Shown here in pieces: positions 31,501 to 34,262 of a stretch of 42,168 nt of DNA (the stretch's first letter is position 1; every line of letters starts with the position of its first letter). Position numbers: made by a program. Source of the stretch: Planctomycetota bacterium. Its GTDB lineage: Bacteria > Planctomycetota > Planctomycetia > Pirellulales > Lacipirellulaceae. The DNA lies in assembly GCA_039190745.1 (NCBI GenBank), contig JBCCXZ010000033.1, forward strand, positions 1-42,168, given 5' to 3'.

Positions 31501-34262
31501 GGCCATCTCCACCTCGGCGAAGTTGCTGAACACCATCCCGTCACCCACGGCCTCGGGGACGCCCATCGTGATGTAGTAGCTGCCCATCACCACGTCCTGC
31601 GACGGGCTGATAATCGGCGAGCCGTTCGACGGGCTGAAGATGTTGTGCGTGCTCATCATCAGCGTGTGCGCTTCGACCTGGGCCTCGATCGAGAGCGGCA
31701 GGTGCACCGCCATCTGGTCGCCGTCGAAATCAGCATTGAACCCCTTGCACACCAGCGGGTGCAGGTTGATCGCGTTGCCCTCGACCAGTGTCGGCTCGAA
31801 CGCCTGGATGCCCATGCGGTGCAGTGTCGGCGCCCGGTTCAGCAGCACCGGATGGTTGCGGATCACCTCTTCCAAGATGTCCCAGACCTCGTCGTCCTTG
31901 CGCTCAAGCATCTTCTTGGCGCTCTTGATCGTGTCGGCGTGGCCGAGCTCTTTGAGGCGCCGGATGATGAACGGCTGGTACAGCTCTAGAGCGATCTTCT
32001 TAGGCAGTCCGCACTGGTGCAGCTTCAGCCGCGGGCCGACCACAATCACCGACCGCGCCGAGTAGTCCACCCGCTTGCCGAGCAGGTTCTCACGGAACCG
32101 GCCCTGCTTGCCCTTGATCATGTCCGTGAGCGACTTCAGCGGCCGGTTGCTGCTGCCCAGCACGGGGCGCTTGCACCGGTTGTTGTCGAACAACGCGTCG
32201 ACCGACTGCTGCAGCATCCGCTTCTCGTTGCGGATGATTACTTCCGGCGCGTTCAGGTCAACCAGCTTCTTCAGCCGGTTGTTCCGGTTGATGATCCGGC
32301 GGTACAGGTCGTTCAGGTCGCTCGTGGCGAAATTGCCCGAGTCCAAGAGCACCAGCGGACGCAAGTCTGGCGGGATCACCGGGATCACGTCTAGCACCAT
32401 CCACTCCGGCTTGTTGTCCGAGTCGCGGATCGACTCGACCGTCTTCAGCCGGTTGATCAGGTCCTTGGCCTTCTGCTTCGAACCGGTTTCCTTCAGCTCC
32501 ACCCGCAGGTCTTCGGAGAGCTGAACCAGGTCGAGGCTGCCCAGCAGCTTGCGGATCGCCTCGGCGCCCATGTCCGCGTCGAACGAGCCTTCGCCGTACT
32601 GCTCACGGGCAGTGCGGAACTCCTCCTCGGTGAGCAGCTGCATCTGCTTCAGCGGCGTCTCGCCCGGGTCGACCACCACGTAGTCCTGGAAGTAGATCAC
32701 CTTCTCCAGGCTGGTGGTCTTCATCGCGAGCAGCGATCCCAGCCGGCTCGGCATGGCCTTGAAGAACCAGATGTGCACGATCGGCGCCGCCAGCTCGATG
32801 TGCCCCATCCGCTTCCGACGTACGCGGCTGTGCGTGACCTTCACGCCGCAGCGGTCGCAGATCATGCCCTTGTACTTCATGCCGCGGTACTTGCCGCAGG
32901 CGCACTCCCAGTCCTTCTCGGGACCAAAAATCCGCTCGCAGAACAGCCCGTCCTTCTCCGGGCGGTACGTGCGGTAGTTGATCGTCTCGGGCTTCTTCAC
33001 CTCGCCGAACGACCAGCTGCGGATATCGTGCGGCCGCGCGAGGCTGATCTTCACCGAGCCGTAGTCGTTCACGCGGTCGTAGTTGGCGCCTTCAAGAATG
33101 CTCATAAGGTTTCTTTTCCTTGAAGCTGTTGCGATCGAATAAGGGGATGGGGGGATGGTTGGGGATACGGGAGATAAGTCAGGCCGCCCGGGCCTCGACG
33201 CGTCGGTAATCTGCTTTCTCTGCGGCTAGATTTACCAATAAACCAATATCAAGTTGTGCCGCCCGCAGGTACGAGCGGAGCTGCGAATAATGCACGCCCG
33301 CCAGTTTCTCAACGGTTTTCAATTCCACGATCACGGCCTCTTCCACAAGCAGGTCCAGCCGGTGCGCGCCGACGGGCTCGGCCTCGTAATAGACAGTGAT
33401 TTCTTTCTCCGACTCGACAATCAATCCTTGCTTGGTCAACTCGATCACCAACGCGTTGTGGTAGACCCGCTCCAAAAAACCCGGGCCCAGCGTGCGGTGA
33501 ACTCTGATGACGGCTTGAATAATCCTCTCGGTGATCTGGTCTGTGGTCACGTCGGTTGAAGGGAAGGAGATGGGAAGATGTTGGGGATAAAGGGGGATAA
33601 CTTCAGATCGAAGATTGTAGATTGAAGATCGAGTACGGTGCTTGGCTAGACGCGAGACACGCTTACTTCTCCGAATCGAATCCGTTTTTTATCTCCCTTA
33701 TCTCCATCATCTCCTAATCCCCTTTTCTTCAATCGACTCAACAAAAAGGGCTAAGGCTGACGCTTCTCAAGCTGCATGTTCAACCCCAAGCCGCGGATCT
33801 CGTTGGTGAGCACGTCGAAGCTCGCCGGCGTGCCGGCCTGCAACGTGTTCTCACCTTTGACCATCGACTCGTAGATCTTCGTCCGGCCCTCGACGTCGTC
33901 GCTCTTCACGGTGAGCAGCTCCTGCAAGATGTACGCGGCGCCGTAGGCCTCCAGCGCCCAGACCTCCATCTCGCCGAACCGCTGCCCGCCGAACCGCGCC
34001 TTCCCGCCCAGGGGCTGCTGCGTGATGAGCGAGTACGGCCCCGTGCTGCGGGCGTGCACCTTGTCGTCGACCAGGTGGTGCAGCTTCAGCATGTAGATGT
34101 AGCCGACGGTCGTCTCCTGCTCGAGAGGCTCGCCGGTGCGGCCGTCGTGCAGTCGGGCCTTGCCGTGCGCGGGCAGCCCCGCCACGGCGAGCGCCTCGTT
34201 GATCTCGTCCTCGGTCGCCCCGTCGAACACCGGCGTAATCGAGCGGAAGCCCAGCTTGCCGC

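What a model noticed while it worked through the whole genome (the two positions that open the first line are those of the whole stretch)
33106..33750. IVS-like hairpin-bracketed PD-(D/E)XK (GxxExxY) gene cassettes inside the rpoB-rpoC, gltB-gltD and cysD-cysN spacers
Six small PDDEXK_3 ('GxxExxY') genes and one unrelated PD-(D/E)XK-fold gene (g02212, C44:8181-8837, between top6B and top6A) lie alone in intergenic spacers, four of them inside conserved operons (rpoB|rpoC C33:33179-33550; gltB|gltD C36:13252-13638; cysD|cysN C17:35253-35549, decayed), each bracketed by 27-45-nt inverted repeats of heptamer-like units; the same arms also occur 20-30 times elsewhere in the genome as gene-less hairpin doublets, and in relatives the same spacers are empty or hold a PDDEXK_3, a '23S rRNA intervening-sequence protein' (S23p) or a RAYT-like Y1 transposase cassette. 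I read this as a REP/RAYT-like system driven by PD-(D/E)XK nucleases: autonomous nuclease cassettes [...]
Evidence so far: Calls 62,72: flanking inverted repeats (gltBD copy 30 bp perfect; C9 copy ~45 bp; rpoBC ~35 bp). Calls 68-70: rpoB-rpoC spacer in 28 Lacipirellulaceae genomes with both flanks: 60-213 nt and empty in 18; PDDEXK_3 cassette in 5 (G000,G098,G017,G010,G101) plus a remnant in G048; S23p-like ORF flanked by ATTGCAA repeats in 3 (G116,G099,G070); RAYT-like ORF in 1 (G092). Calls 73-74: gltB-gltD spacer in 28 genomes: PDDEXK_3 in 8, S23p-like in 3, RAYT-like in 2, 23-216 nt in 13, two long ones unexplained. Call 82: Pfam confirms the two alternative ORFs (23S_rRNA_IVP 1e-14 in G070; Y1_Tnp 6e-28 in G092). 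Call 85: among all genes <=260 aa here only PDDEXK_3 genes (3) plus two REP-flanked genes have [...]
(Added by a program. Inside this text positions count along the whole contig: contig position 1 is position 1 of the stretch shown here. "Call 12" and the like, gene names such as g00115 and contig names such as C1 are that model's own, and its searches are not shown. The text may have been shortened before it was handed on; [...] marks where a part breaks off. The agent that wrote the report below was given it as the finding of a first reader that could run no searches.)

Follow-up and report, generated by a model that had tools for sequence, protein, structure and literature searches.

The report
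Small nuclease gene inside hairpin repeats
Between the two big RNA polymerase genes sits a tiny nuclease gene wrapped in inverted arrays of short repeats, and the same gene-plus-repeat package, along with many gene-less copies of the repeats, turns up across distant bacterial phyla, so it looks like a so far undescribed kind of selfish repeat system.

Summary
The 645-nt rpoB-rpoC spacer (33106-33750, minus strand) holds a 123-aa PDDEXK_3/GxxExxY gene. It is bracketed by a GA-rich arm and two CU-rich arms built of about 8-nt GGRGAT units (duplex -60 kcal/mol; 0 of 200 shuffles as good).

New here:
- The same protein clade with the same arms sits at rplJ|rplL in one relative.
- Each nuclease clade has its own arm family (9/9; 29-30/30; 8/8 in a second genome).
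- Arm abundance follows the cognate gene in three within-genus contrasts.
- In a sample from many phyla, 34 of 52 PDDEXK_3 genes are bracketed by inverted arrays of 8-10-nt units.
- One Sorangium genome has one such gene and about 1,200 array matches.

The fold is a minimal RecB/Cas4-like nuclease with intact catalytic residues.

Best reading (0.58): a REPIN/RAYT-like repeat system run by a PD-(D/E)XK nuclease, built like an ORF-bearing 23S rRNA intervening sequence. Nuclease activity, arm binding and mobility are inferred, not shown. Counter-examples exist: arms without a detectable cognate gene, and housekeeping genes and S23p genes in the same brackets. My literature searches found no description.

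The parts
33751..37464 (-). rpoB, the upstream flank; its stop codon lies 5 nt before the outer end of the 5' arm region
   Evidence: ORF list; six Rpb2 Pfam domains
33689..33745 (-). 5' arm A (GA-rich on the transcript). It has a terminal GTCGATTGAAG module followed by four GGRGAT-type units of about 8 nt. It can pair with A' or with A''.
   Evidence: Inverted repeats I1, I2, I4 and I5. The fold pairs it with A''. Duplex -60.2 kcal/mol with 0/200 shuffles as good. The family is dispersed.
33601..33688 (-). Variable loop between A and A'. It carries a solo arm of another unit family (about 33599-33637). In a close relative the loop is replaced as a block while the arms and ORF are kept.
   Evidence: G007 loop unrelated; part of the loop hits other contigs; a contig of run X2 skips 33598-33699 and has 121 other letters there.
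33551..33600 (-). Inner CU-rich arm A', directly upstream of the GTG start. With A it forms a hairpin of about 190 nt of the same kind as the gene-less F1 elements elsewhere in the genome.
   Evidence: I1 (43 nt, 77%) and direct repeat D3; comparison with other F1 elements
33179..33550 (-). PDDEXK_3 / GxxExxY gene, 123 aa. It is a minimal RecB/Cas4-like PD-(D/E)XK nuclease. G22, G24, E27, Y30, D66, E76, K78 and Y94 are invariant and Q90 nearly invariant over 69 sequences.
   Evidence: AlphaFold2 pLDDT 96.2; Foldseek neighbours
33135..33178 (-). 3' arm A'' (CU-rich on the transcript), the partner of A around the whole cassette
   Evidence: I2, I4, I5 and D3
33106..33134 (-). Short leader before the rpoC start codon, outside the cassette
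   Evidence: Sequence
28705..33105 (-). rpoC, the downstream flank
   Evidence: ORF list; Rpb1 Pfam domains

Best explanation
The spacer holds one member of a widespread class of small genetic elements. Each element is a gene for a minimal RecB/Cas4-like PD-(D/E)XK nuclease (PDDEXK_3/GxxExxY) lying in the loop of a hairpin. The two arms of the hairpin are inverted arrays of tandem 8-10-nt units. The same arms, without the gene and with short variable loops, are scattered through the genome in tens to hundreds of copies.

I read this as a two-part system like REPINs and their RAYT. The nuclease, probably as a dimer or higher multimer, recognises the unit arrays of its own arm family. It cuts at or near the hairpins, and so keeps the gene-less hairpins being copied, converted or moved. 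Its own gene rides inside one hairpin.

The cassette itself moves or is replaced only rarely. When it does, this is probably by recombination through the arms or through the conserved flanking genes. That is why it ends up in spacers of conserved, co-transcribed operons.

On the rpoB-rpoC transcript the arms form a long stem, like the stem of an ORF-bearing 23S rRNA intervening sequence. That stem is a likely RNase III site that would separate the cassette RNA from the polymerase messages.

Shown: the architecture, the dispersal, the match between clade and arms, the co-occurrence, the patchy distribution, a second insertion site, the conserved catalytic residues and the fold class.

Inferred: nuclease activity, arm binding, the mobilising role and RNase III processing.
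For: (1) Architecture in the window.

(2) Dispersal in the own genome against reversed-sequence controls: F1 33/0, F2 17/0, C9-type 26/6, CTAATC-type 22/0, C3-type 14/0, CACGAAA-type 5/0. Ten of 10 close F1 pairs are GA-arm then CU-arm hairpins with unrelated loops.

(3) Arms and gene occur as one unit. The rpoBC protein clade (>=61% identity; next best <=50%) occurs at 9 places. Eight are at rpoB|rpoC and one at rplJ|rplL in G002, and that one has the same F1 arms.

(4) One clade, one arm family. Of 30 loci of the gltB|gltD-type clade, 29-30 have CGCRRAG/CACAGAG-type arms; 14 are at gltB|gltD and 16 elsewhere. In the complete genome G058, 8 of 8 cassettes are bracketed, each by its own unit family. 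The two closest protein pairs (61% and 60%) have the most similar units.

(5) Co-occurrence. F1 arm matches in genomes with the F1-clade gene: 53, 87, 62, 42, 51, 14, 11, 12 and 3. Of the 52 genomes without it, 37 have 0. Within-genus contrasts: g9 1 against 14-62; g12 1 against 11; g3 0,0,0,0 against 12. The six genomes with no PDDEXK_3 hit at all have 0-3 F2 matches and 0-1 F1 matches.

(6) Generality. In a cross-phylum sample, 34 of 52 intact genes have flank inverted repeats at or above the 95th percentile of mismatched pairs (median 37 against 16). Arm period is 9 nt in 18, 10 nt in 9 and 8 nt in 3. Sorangium sp. So ce134 has 1 PF13366 gene and 1,210 CGCCAAG-triple matches against 0 in the control. 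Eight of 8 sampled arrays there are hairpins with the same termini as the gene's own bracket.

(7) Turnover and transfer. Occupancy of the rpoBC spacer is patchy over the rpoB tree: PDDEXK_3 in at least 3 separate clades. The G051 cassette groups with genus g1, not with its own genus (support 97/96). Monophyly of the g9 cassettes is rejected, p-AU 0.0175. Congeneric G007 has a different, gene-less nested hairpin at gltB|gltD. Two cassettes on one Desulfobacteraceae contig are 87% identical.

(8) Enzyme. Catalytic D66, E76, K78 and the GxxExxY residues are invariant over 69 sequences. AlphaFold2 pLDDT is 96.2. The nearest solved folds are Cas4, lambda exonuclease, LHK-Exo, AdnAB, MGME1 and RecE. 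About 35 of the top 150 representatives are two-domain fusions, in some of which one half lacks the catalytic residues; this hints at a dimer.
Against: - There is no assay of any kind.
- Cassettes do not behave like active transposons. Within G000 the six copies are at most 57% identical and within G058 at most 61%. Site-specific orthologues at 58-75% identity across genera fit long vertical descent with losses.
- F2 arms are numerous in genomes where no cognate gene was found: G049 95, G025 17, G007 15. F1 arms are present in G021 (18), G018 (8), G020 (7) and G055 (6) without the F1-clade gene. G031 (60) and G043 (25) are unresolved, because their assemblies lack the rpoC region.
- The same kind of bracket encloses a SpoU methylase gene and a RuvX gene. 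In relatives it encloses S23p genes, which are not nucleases. A nuclease in cis is therefore not required for the architecture.
- No target-site duplication was seen, by eye only.
- The nearest folds are mostly end-processing exonucleases, not site-specific endonucleases.
- The AU test is modest (p 0.0175) and was run after the tree had been seen. A g9+g5 clade is not rejected (p 0.129).
- Related genomes are not independent, and the cross-phylum protein/arm correlation (rho 0.27) is confounded by base composition.
Confidence: 0.58

Rival explanations
1. Hitch-hiker reading. The hairpin arrays spread or arise by other means: another enzyme such as a Y1/RAYT transposase, or slippage plus recombination. 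The PDDEXK_3 gene is then a separate selfish, homing-type gene that invades hairpin loops. The near-palindromic arm pair of a gene-less hairpin would be its cleavage site, and the arms would supply homology for copying the gene in, which splits and so protects the site. The nuclease would be a parasite of the repeats, not their driver.
For: - The gene lies in the loop, between arms that are adjacent in gene-less copies.
- Loops are exchangeable blocks bounded by the arms.
- Other cargo occurs in the same brackets: SpoU, RuvX and S23p.
- Arms persist without a detectable cognate gene in G049, G025 and G007.
- A RAYT-like gene exists in the own genome (weak Y1_Tnp, 5.4e-4), and a clear Y1_Tnp occupies the rpoBC spacer of G020 (8e-28).
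- Distribution is patchy and the cassette tree is incongruent with the host tree.
Against: - Usually there is one gene per arm family against tens to hundreds of gene-less copies. An efficient homing gene should fill most sites.
- The RAYT-like genes seen here are flanked by ordinary palindromic REPs, not by unit arrays.
- Arm abundance collapses where the cognate gene is missing within genera g9, g12 and g3. A mere passenger would not predict this.
Confidence: 0.2
2. Resident-gene reading. The cassette is an old, vertically inherited part of the operon. The stems serve the host, as an RNase III processing site, an attenuator or an RNA-stabilising hairpin that tunes rpoB against rpoC. The small nuclease has a housekeeping or defence role unrelated to the repeats. 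The dispersed hairpins are ordinary REP-like RNA elements.
For: - The ORF is intact with conserved catalytic residues in 8 rpoBC cassettes from 4 genera.
- Cassette divergence of 58-75% is comparable with the less conserved flank at gltB|gltD, 62-75%.
- The cassette is co-oriented with the operon and no promoter or terminator was detected.
- In the cross-phylum sample the upstream neighbour is on the same strand in 42 of 48 loci (crude ORF-based call).
- RNase III excision of an identical architecture is shown for the Coxiella intervening sequence (PMC4990558, passages read).
Against: - 37 of 53 related genomes do without any gene in this spacer.
- Occupancy is scattered over the rpoB tree, with three different gene families in the same site.
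- The same clade with the same arms sits in another spacer in G002.
- The clade-specific arm families and the co-occurrence have no reason under this reading.
- There is no PADLOC match.
Confidence: 0.15
3. Chance or artefact. The repeats are low-complexity purine/pyrimidine runs that pair by composition, and the small ORF is a spurious frame in GC-rich DNA.
For: For several F1 cassettes of relatives the duplex energy is only 1.5-3 sd better than shuffles, because GA-rich and CU-rich runs pair by composition. The whole-spacer fold z is -1.4.
Against: - Pfam and NCBIfam E-values are near 1e-38.
- 15,052 representative relatives.
- Reversed-sequence controls give 0.
- F2-type brackets: 23 of 30 have 0 of 100 shuffles as good.
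Confidence: 0.01

Closest known systems
REP / REPIN sequences with their RAYT (TnpA-REP) genes, together called REPtrons. Seen: PMC3116915, PMC3333891, PMC5581495 and PMC8266576 as search listings and abstracts; PMC3733652 as passages.
   Same: - The gene is flanked by inverted copies of the very repeat that is dispersed as gene-less hairpin doublets.
- There is usually one gene per repeat family, and several families with their own genes per genome.
- Repeat abundance is tied to presence of the gene.
- No obvious target duplication.
- Intergenic location.
   Different: - The enzyme is a roughly 125-aa PD-(D/E)XK (RecB/Cas4-like) nuclease, not an HUH Y1 transposase.
- The arms are arrays of tandem 8-10-nt units with variable unit number. 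They are not single 20-40-nt palindromes with a GTAG or CGTC tag.
- The gene sits in the loop between the two arms of one hairpin.
ORF-bearing intervening sequences of 23S rRNA (Coxiella and Leptospira; S23p, Pfam 23S_rRNA_IVP). Seen: PMC4990558, passages read.
   Same: - An element of about 430-520 nt with terminal inverted repeats that form a stem of about 28 bp or longer around a small ORF.
- It lies inside a highly conserved, heavily transcribed unit.
- Sporadic distribution that suggests horizontal transfer.
- In relatives the same rpoB-rpoC site holds a true 23S_rRNA_IVP gene in such a bracket.
   Different: - It sits in an mRNA spacer, not in a 23S rRNA helix. None of 40 cross-phylum loci examined showed any rRNA.
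- The ORF is a nuclease, not a four-helix-bundle protein.
- The arms are unit arrays shared with dispersed gene-less hairpins.
- RNase III cleavage is untested here.
Free-standing homing endonuclease genes between conserved genes, and PD-(D/E)XK homing enzymes (from my own knowledge; no paper read here)
   Same: - A small nuclease gene alone between conserved genes.
- Patchy distribution.
- One cassette tree incongruent with the host tree.
- Whole-spacer replacement between congeners.
   Different: - It has dedicated inverted repeat arms.
- It has a large population of gene-less copies of those arms.
- No evidence that the empty allele is cut.
MITEs with their parent insertion sequences, and IS200/IS605 elements
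   Same: An autonomous versus non-autonomous pairing, hairpin-forming ends and small size.
   Different: - No DDE or HUH transposase.
- No target duplication seen.
- Loops of the gene-less copies are unrelated to each other and carry no remnant of the gene. Only 6 PF13366 matches exist in the genome.
Cas4, RecB/AddB/AdnAB nuclease domains, lambda exonuclease, RecE and MGME1 (fold neighbours)
   Same: The PD-(D/E)XK core with the D...ExK and QxxxY motifs. Foldseek E-values are 4e-4 to 1e-2 and TM-scores 0.5-0.6 over the query.
   Different: - About half their size.
- No Fe-S cluster module and no helicase partner.
- No sequence match to any solved chain.

Membership tests
PDDEXK_3 (PF13366) / GxxExxY protein (TIGR04256) | Profile match above the curated cut-off | tested here: met
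   130.3 bits against a cut-off of 22; 132 bits against 35
PDDEXK_3 (PF13366) / GxxExxY protein (TIGR04256) | N-terminal GxxExxY motif and the D...ExK catalytic core of the PD-(D/E)XK superfamily | tested here: met
   G24, E27, Y30, D66, E76 and K78 are invariant over 69 sequences. The model shows the alpha-beta core, pLDDT 96.2.
PDDEXK_3 (PF13366) / GxxExxY protein (TIGR04256) | Curators' family notes on context (possible mention of repeats or intervening sequences) | not testable with these tools
   The libraries return names and scores only, not the notes.
REP/RAYT system (REPtron) | The enzyme is an HUH Y1 tyrosine transposase | tested here: not met
   P0001 matches only PF13366. Y1_Tnp is found in other ORFs: L025 at 8e-28 and C11 at 5.4e-4.
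REP/RAYT system (REPtron) | The gene is flanked by inverted copies of the repeat that is dispersed genome-wide as hairpin doublets | tested here: met
REP/RAYT system (REPtron) | Repeat family specific to the enzyme clade, and repeat abundance tied to gene presence | tested here: met
   Clade-specific arms. F1 counts against gene presence. Exceptions for F2 in G049, G025 and G007.
REP/RAYT system (REPtron) | A single 20-40-nt palindrome with a conserved GTAG or CGTC end | tested here: not met
   The arms are tandem 8-10-nt unit arrays with other termini, such as AACCGC...GCGGTT or GTCGATTGAAG.
23S rRNA intervening sequence | Inserted in a helix of the 23S rRNA gene | tested here: not met
   It lies between rpoB and rpoC. 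There is no Rfam hit in the spacer.
23S rRNA intervening sequence | Terminal inverted repeats that form a long stem around the element, with or without an ORF | tested here: met
   The Coxiella comparison is a 28-bp stem (PMC4990558).
23S rRNA intervening sequence | Excision from the transcript by RNase III | not testable with these tools
   No RNA run holds the stretch, and only contigs were available.
Free-standing homing endonuclease gene | Sporadic presence at one conserved site, with a gene tree incongruent with the host tree | tested here: inconclusive
   Patchy occupancy. One incongruent cassette, p-AU 0.0175, while g9+g5 is not rejected.
Free-standing homing endonuclease gene | Cleaves the allele that lacks the gene | not testable with these tools
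   This needs an enzyme assay.
MITE / insertion sequence | Target-site duplication and a DDE-type transposase in the autonomous copy | tested here: not met
   No duplication seen at F1 or F2 element ends, by eye. There is no transposase domain in the ORF.

The most novel reading that the evidence does not exclude
PDDEXK_3/GxxExxY proteins, a family of at least 15,000 sequence clusters with no known function, are the enzymes of a second class of bacterial hairpin-repeat replicators. This class is independent of RAYT and is found across the bacterial domain. Each nuclease clade recognises its own 8-10-nt unit, read as tandem arrays in inverted arms. It maintains tens to more than a thousand gene-less hairpins per genome.

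ORF-bearing intervening sequences, and some 'orphan' palindromic or tandem short-repeat families that lack a known transposase, would then be members or relatives of this class.
Probability: 0.35. Interest if true: 0.9.

Novelty: new variant of a known kind. Interest (0 to 1): 0.8.

Why it matters
- It would give a function to a very large family of unknown function: 15,052 representative clusters at E <= 0.001.
- It would add a second enzyme class to the only known repeat-plus-domesticated-nuclease partnership in bacteria, REPIN/RAYT.
- The origin of ORF-bearing intervening sequences is still called unclear in PMC4990558. This would make that question testable outside rRNA.
- Palindromic repeat families that lack a transposase are raised as an open question in PMC3733652. 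This suggests where to look for their enzymes.
- The apparent one-unit, one-clade code is seen as single-base unit changes between 60%-identical paralogues in one genome. It is a simple system for studying how nucleic-acid recognition evolves.
- It could yield small programmable sequence-specific binders or nucleases.
- For annotation, these arrays explain much of the rapid turnover of intergenic spacers between close relatives.

Tried and rejected
I used a degenerate motif scan instead.
- Self-BLAST census of inverted repeats was too insensitive: 63 pairs, and it missed C33 and C9. I used it only to find other bracketed genes.
- Rfam: one sub-threshold hit in the spacer (19 bits against 86) and none in 40 of the 80 cross-phylum loci. 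The other 40 were not scanned.
- Promoter and terminator scan: nothing in the spacer. One terminator-like site lies inside rpoC, within the shuffle expectation.
- PDB by sequence: no real hit (E 0.82).
- PADLOC: none.
- Sequencing runs: the stretch is held only by DNA-type runs. The RNA runs hold small shares that I did not lay. Contigs cannot show RNA ends. Joints that skip about 900-1,000 nt have short sides and come from other organisms' conserved polymerase genes, so I discarded them.
- The ATTGCAA pattern for S23p-type arms was too strict: 24 matches in 6 of 61 genomes, and it missed most known arms. No conclusion drawn.
- Neighbour-strand test is crude: longest ORF >=130 aa, and in the GC-rich family only 18 of 30 loci were parsed. 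I give it little weight.
- Target-site duplications were looked for by eye only; none seen.
- A link to cyanobacterial heptamer repeats (recalled from memory) could not be tested. The one cyanobacterial locus (L146) is a degraded fragment.
- The CPR rRNA-insertion paper (PMC11270868) was seen only in the search listing, because my look-up failed on a term format and was not repeated.
- Supplements of the papers were not opened.

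
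Full report
WHAT IS THERE

The window carries rpoB (33751..37464) and rpoC (28705..33105) on the minus strand. The 645-nt spacer between them holds a 123-aa ORF (33179..33550, GTG start). The ORF matches PF13366 PDDEXK_3 (5.9e-38) and TIGR04256 GxxExxY (1.3e-38).

Read along the transcript, the spacer is laid out as follows:
- a GA-rich arm A (33745-33689): a GTCGATTGAAG module followed by GGRGAT-type units about 8 nt apart;
- a loop of about 100 nt;
- a CU-rich arm A' (33600-33551);
- the ORF;
- a second CU-rich arm A'' (33178-33135).

A can pair with A' to give a local hairpin of about 190 nt. It can also pair with A'' to bracket the whole cassette. The minimum-energy fold chooses A with A''. 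The A:A'' duplex is -60.2 kcal/mol against -31.4 +- 4.0 for shuffles, with 0 of 200 as good. No Rfam family, promoter or terminator was found in the spacer.

THE OWN GENOME

There are six PDDEXK_3 copies, at most 57% identical to each other. Four have clear flanking inverted repeats. One has a downstream hairpin only, and one ends at a contig edge. Each copy has a different arm family made of 7-9-nt units.

Every arm family recurs elsewhere without a gene. Matches against the reversed-sequence control are:
- F1 (GGRGAT): 33 / 0
- F2 (CGCRRAG): 17 / 0
- C9-type: 26 / 6
- CTAATC-type: 22 / 0
- C3-type: 14 / 0
- CACGAAA-type: 5 / 0

Ten of 10 close F1 pairs form GA-arm then CU-arm hairpins 100-190 nt apart. 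Their inner sequences are unrelated, and several hold a nested REP-like hairpin. F2 elements have loops of 20-94 nt, and 423 nt when the gene is inside. None of the gene-less elements carries a remnant of the gene, since PF13366 has only six matches in the genome.

RELATIVES, SAME SITE

I searched 61 genomes of the family, the own genome included. The rpoC N-terminus was found in 55. I fetched 52 relatives; I left out G015 (a 51% hit) and G024 (match at a contig start), and ignored a second weak hit in G050. All 52 relatives and the own genome gave both flanks.
- 37 spacers are short (45-203 nt).
- 16 spacers are long (496-981 nt).

The long spacers hold:
- PDDEXK_3 in 8;
- a 23S_rRNA_IVP (S23p) ORF in 6 confirmed by Pfam, two of them broken, plus 1 decayed copy not tested by Pfam;
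- a Y1 transposase in 1.

The short spacers are often not empty. Fifteen of 37 have an internal inverted repeat of score >=30, and 13 of 37 hold >=3 units of a named arm family. Eight of those 13 are F2, the family that brackets the gltB|gltD cassette of the own genome. On an rpoB tree the PDDEXK_3 state occurs in at least three separate clades and the S23p state in five. Filled and unfilled genomes occur within the same genus.

ARMS AND GENE BELONG TOGETHER

The rpoBC protein clade (>=61% identity; next best <=50%) was found at nine places. Eight are at rpoB|rpoC. One is between rplJ and rplL in G002, and that copy has F1 arms on both sides.

Thirty loci of the gltB|gltD-type clade were fetched. 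Of these, 29-30 are bracketed by CGCRRAG/CACAGAG-type arms. Fourteen lie at gltB|gltD and 16 elsewhere. In 23 of 30 no shuffle (0 of 100) pairs as well.

In the complete genome G058, all 8 cassettes are bracketed, each by its own unit family. The two closest protein pairs (61% and 60%) have units that differ by about one base. This comparison within one genome removes base composition as an explanation.

CO-OCCURRENCE

F1 arm matches per genome:
- with the F1-clade gene: 53, 87, 62, 42, 51, 14, 11, 12 and 3;
- without it: 37 of 52 genomes have 0.

Three within-genus contrasts point the same way:
- g9: 1 against 14-62;
- g12: 1 against 11;
- g3: 0, 0, 0, 0 against 12.

Exceptions:
- G021 has 18, and a solo F1 arm is still in its rpoBC spacer.
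- G018 has 8, G020 7 and G055 6.
- G031 (60) and G043 (25) are unresolved, because their assemblies lack the rpoC region.

For F2 the link is looser. The six genomes with no PDDEXK_3 hit at all have 0-3 matches. But G049 (95), G025 (17) and G007 (15) have arms without a detectable cognate gene.

TURNOVER

Congeneric G007 keeps the rpoBC, C3 and cysD|cysN cassettes. At gltB|gltD it has a 217-nt nested gene-less hairpin of other arm families in place of the cassette, and the difference runs from stop codon to start codon.

In G007, and in a contig of run X2, the loop between A and A' is replaced by unrelated sequence while the arms and ORF stay.

The G051 cassette groups with genus g1 (support 97/96). 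It is only 60-65% identical to the other g9 cassettes, which are 80-84% identical to each other. Monophyly of g9 is rejected (p-AU 0.0175), but a g9+g5 clade is not (p 0.129). The test was run after I had seen the tree.

Two cassettes 3.4 kb apart on one Desulfobacteraceae contig are 87% identical.

BEYOND THE FAMILY

Of the 80 loci:
- 77 had an ORF with the motif;
- 55 of those also had D...ExK and QxxxY;
- 52 were usable.

The inverted-repeat score between the two flanks had a median of 37. Mismatched flank pairs had a median of 16. That null is inflated, because arms of different loci resemble each other. Thirty-four of 52 reach the null's 95th percentile and 15 exceed the 99th.

The arms are tandem units such as CGCCAAG, CGCAAAG, CGCGGAT, CACGAAT, CACAGAT and CAGGAT. 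The period is 9 nt in 18 loci, 10 nt in 9 and 8 nt in 3. Many have outer ends like AACCGC...GCGGTT. The hosts include Chloroflexota, Myxococcota, Bacteroidota, Acidobacteriota, Verrucomicrobiota, Proteobacteria and Planctomycetota.

Protein identity and arm similarity correlate: rho 0.27, with 0 of 2,000 permutations as high. This is confounded by composition and kinship.

Sorangium sp. So ce134 (15.5 Mb) has one PF13366 gene and 1,210 overlapping CGCCAAG-triple matches, against 0 in the control. All 8 arrays I looked at are hairpins of the form GAACCGCCAAG(ACGCCAAG)n, a loop of 10-100 nt, then (CTTGGCGT)m CTTGGCGGTTC. The unit numbers in the two arms are unequal. The single gene sits in the same structure.

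THE PROTEIN

Over 69 sequences G22, G24, L26, E27, Y30, D66, E76, K78, Y94 and R117 are invariant, and Q90 nearly so. The AlphaFold2 model is confident (pLDDT 96.2, pTM 0.89).

Its nearest solved folds are Cas4 SSO0001, LHK-Exo, lambda exonuclease, AdnAB, MGME1 and RecE. Foldseek E-values are 4e-4 to 1e-2 and TM-scores 0.5-0.6. No solved chain matches by sequence and there is no PADLOC model.

The family has 15,052 representatives at E <= 0.001. About 35 of the best 150 are two-domain proteins of 250-295 aa, in some of which one half lacks the catalytic residues. This hints at a dimer as the working unit.

HOW IT MOST LIKELY WORKS

The data reproduce the hallmarks of REPIN/RAYT systems, but with another enzyme and another repeat design. 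The shared hallmarks are:
- a gene inside inverted copies of its repeat;
- many gene-less hairpins;
- one gene per repeat family, and several families per genome;
- repeat abundance tied to the gene.

I therefore rate a nuclease-dependent repeat system as the best reading (0.58). Periodic units of about one helical turn suggest that several protomers bind side by side. The unequal unit numbers suggest that the units, not perfect arm pairing, are what is read. The cassette itself seldom duplicates.

Its presence in co-transcribed operon spacers fits a promoter-less gene that depends on read-through. The long RNA stem matches the RNase III substrate of ORF-bearing intervening sequences (PMC4990558, passages). 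All of this paragraph is inference.

The main rival (0.20) is that the gene is a homing-type parasite of hairpins that spread by other means. A host-serving resident cassette gets 0.15.

AGAINST MY READING
- There is no assay of any kind.
- Arms persist without a detectable gene in some genomes.
- SpoU, RuvX and S23p genes lie in like brackets.
- No target duplication was seen.
- The fold neighbours are end-processing enzymes.

WHAT IS KNOWN

Searches for GxxExxY, PDDEXK_3, PF13366, TIGR04256, S23p-family names, four arm words, REPIN/RAYT with endonuclease, and Planctomycetes with REP found no paper that links this family to repeats.
- The superfamily survey lists PDDEXK_3 as of unknown function with multiple transfers (PMC3424549, passage).
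- One paper notes a GxxExxY call where another tool saw cas4 (PMC8934634, passage).
- PMC3733652 (passages) states that CGTC repeats lack a dedicated transposase. It asks whether untagged palindromic repeats have their own binding proteins.

The curators' notes of the NCBIfam models could not be read. Subscription journals and supplements were not searched.

Noticed in passing
G000 contig C40:9419-10508 (locus L059): A 270-aa SpoU-family RNA methylase gene is enclosed by 75-nt inverted arms (85% complementary). The arms are composites of two unit families (GGATCG-type and CTAATC-type). This is a housekeeping gene in the same kind of bracket.
   Followed up: partly
G000 contig C80:4876-5605 (locus L060): A RuvX (YqgF) gene is enclosed by arms of about 93 nt. 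Each arm contains a CTAATC-type hairpin plus GACAGGG units.
   Followed up: partly
G000 contig C11:13983-14520: A RAYT-like ORF (weak Y1_Tnp, 5.4e-4, below the cut-off) is flanked by perfect 29-nt inverted repeats of an ordinary palindromic REP type. A classical REP/RAYT-like pair therefore coexists with the unit-array systems.
   Followed up: partly
G000 contig C10:21912-22686: Two small ORFs (88 and 178 aa) lie between 67-nt REP-like doublets. By eye they looked like a toxin-antitoxin pair, but I did not check this with any library.
   Followed up: no
Locus L054:2902-2975 (G000 contig C9, about 43401-43474): A roughly 74-nt element matches more than 40 places in the congeneric genome G007 at 73-86% identity. 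It is another abundant dispersed repeat and I did not characterise it.
   Followed up: no
Locus L028 (G018 rpoB-rpoC spacer, 981 nt): Besides a broken S23p cassette with ATTGCAA-type arms, the spacer holds a GGGGAT-type arm and a 109-aa hydrophobic ORF. So two elements are stacked in one spacer.
   Followed up: no
G029:C1:399757-399859 and G029:C3:555575-555629: Long pure tandem arrays of the F2 unit occur here: CGCGAAGG at least 13 times and CGCGGAGA at least 6 times. This shows that unit number can expand far beyond the usual 3-4.
   Followed up: no
Proteins P0002, P0008, P0014 and P0029: These are two-domain PDDEXK_3 proteins of 250-390 aa. In P0008 the first half has lost the D...ExK residues, and in P0002 the second half has lost the E of ExK. 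They look like fused pseudo-dimers.
   Followed up: partly
Short rpoB-rpoC spacers L012, L013, L020 and others: The gene-less F2 hairpins in this site carry a third copy of the terminal 8-10-mer (GCGTGAGAC) inside the loop. The 5' end can therefore pair either with the loop copy or with the 3' end. This alternative structure is conserved across several genera.
   Followed up: no
It does contain a PD...ELK-like stretch and is followed by a solo F2-type arm at 8876-8891.
   Followed up: partly
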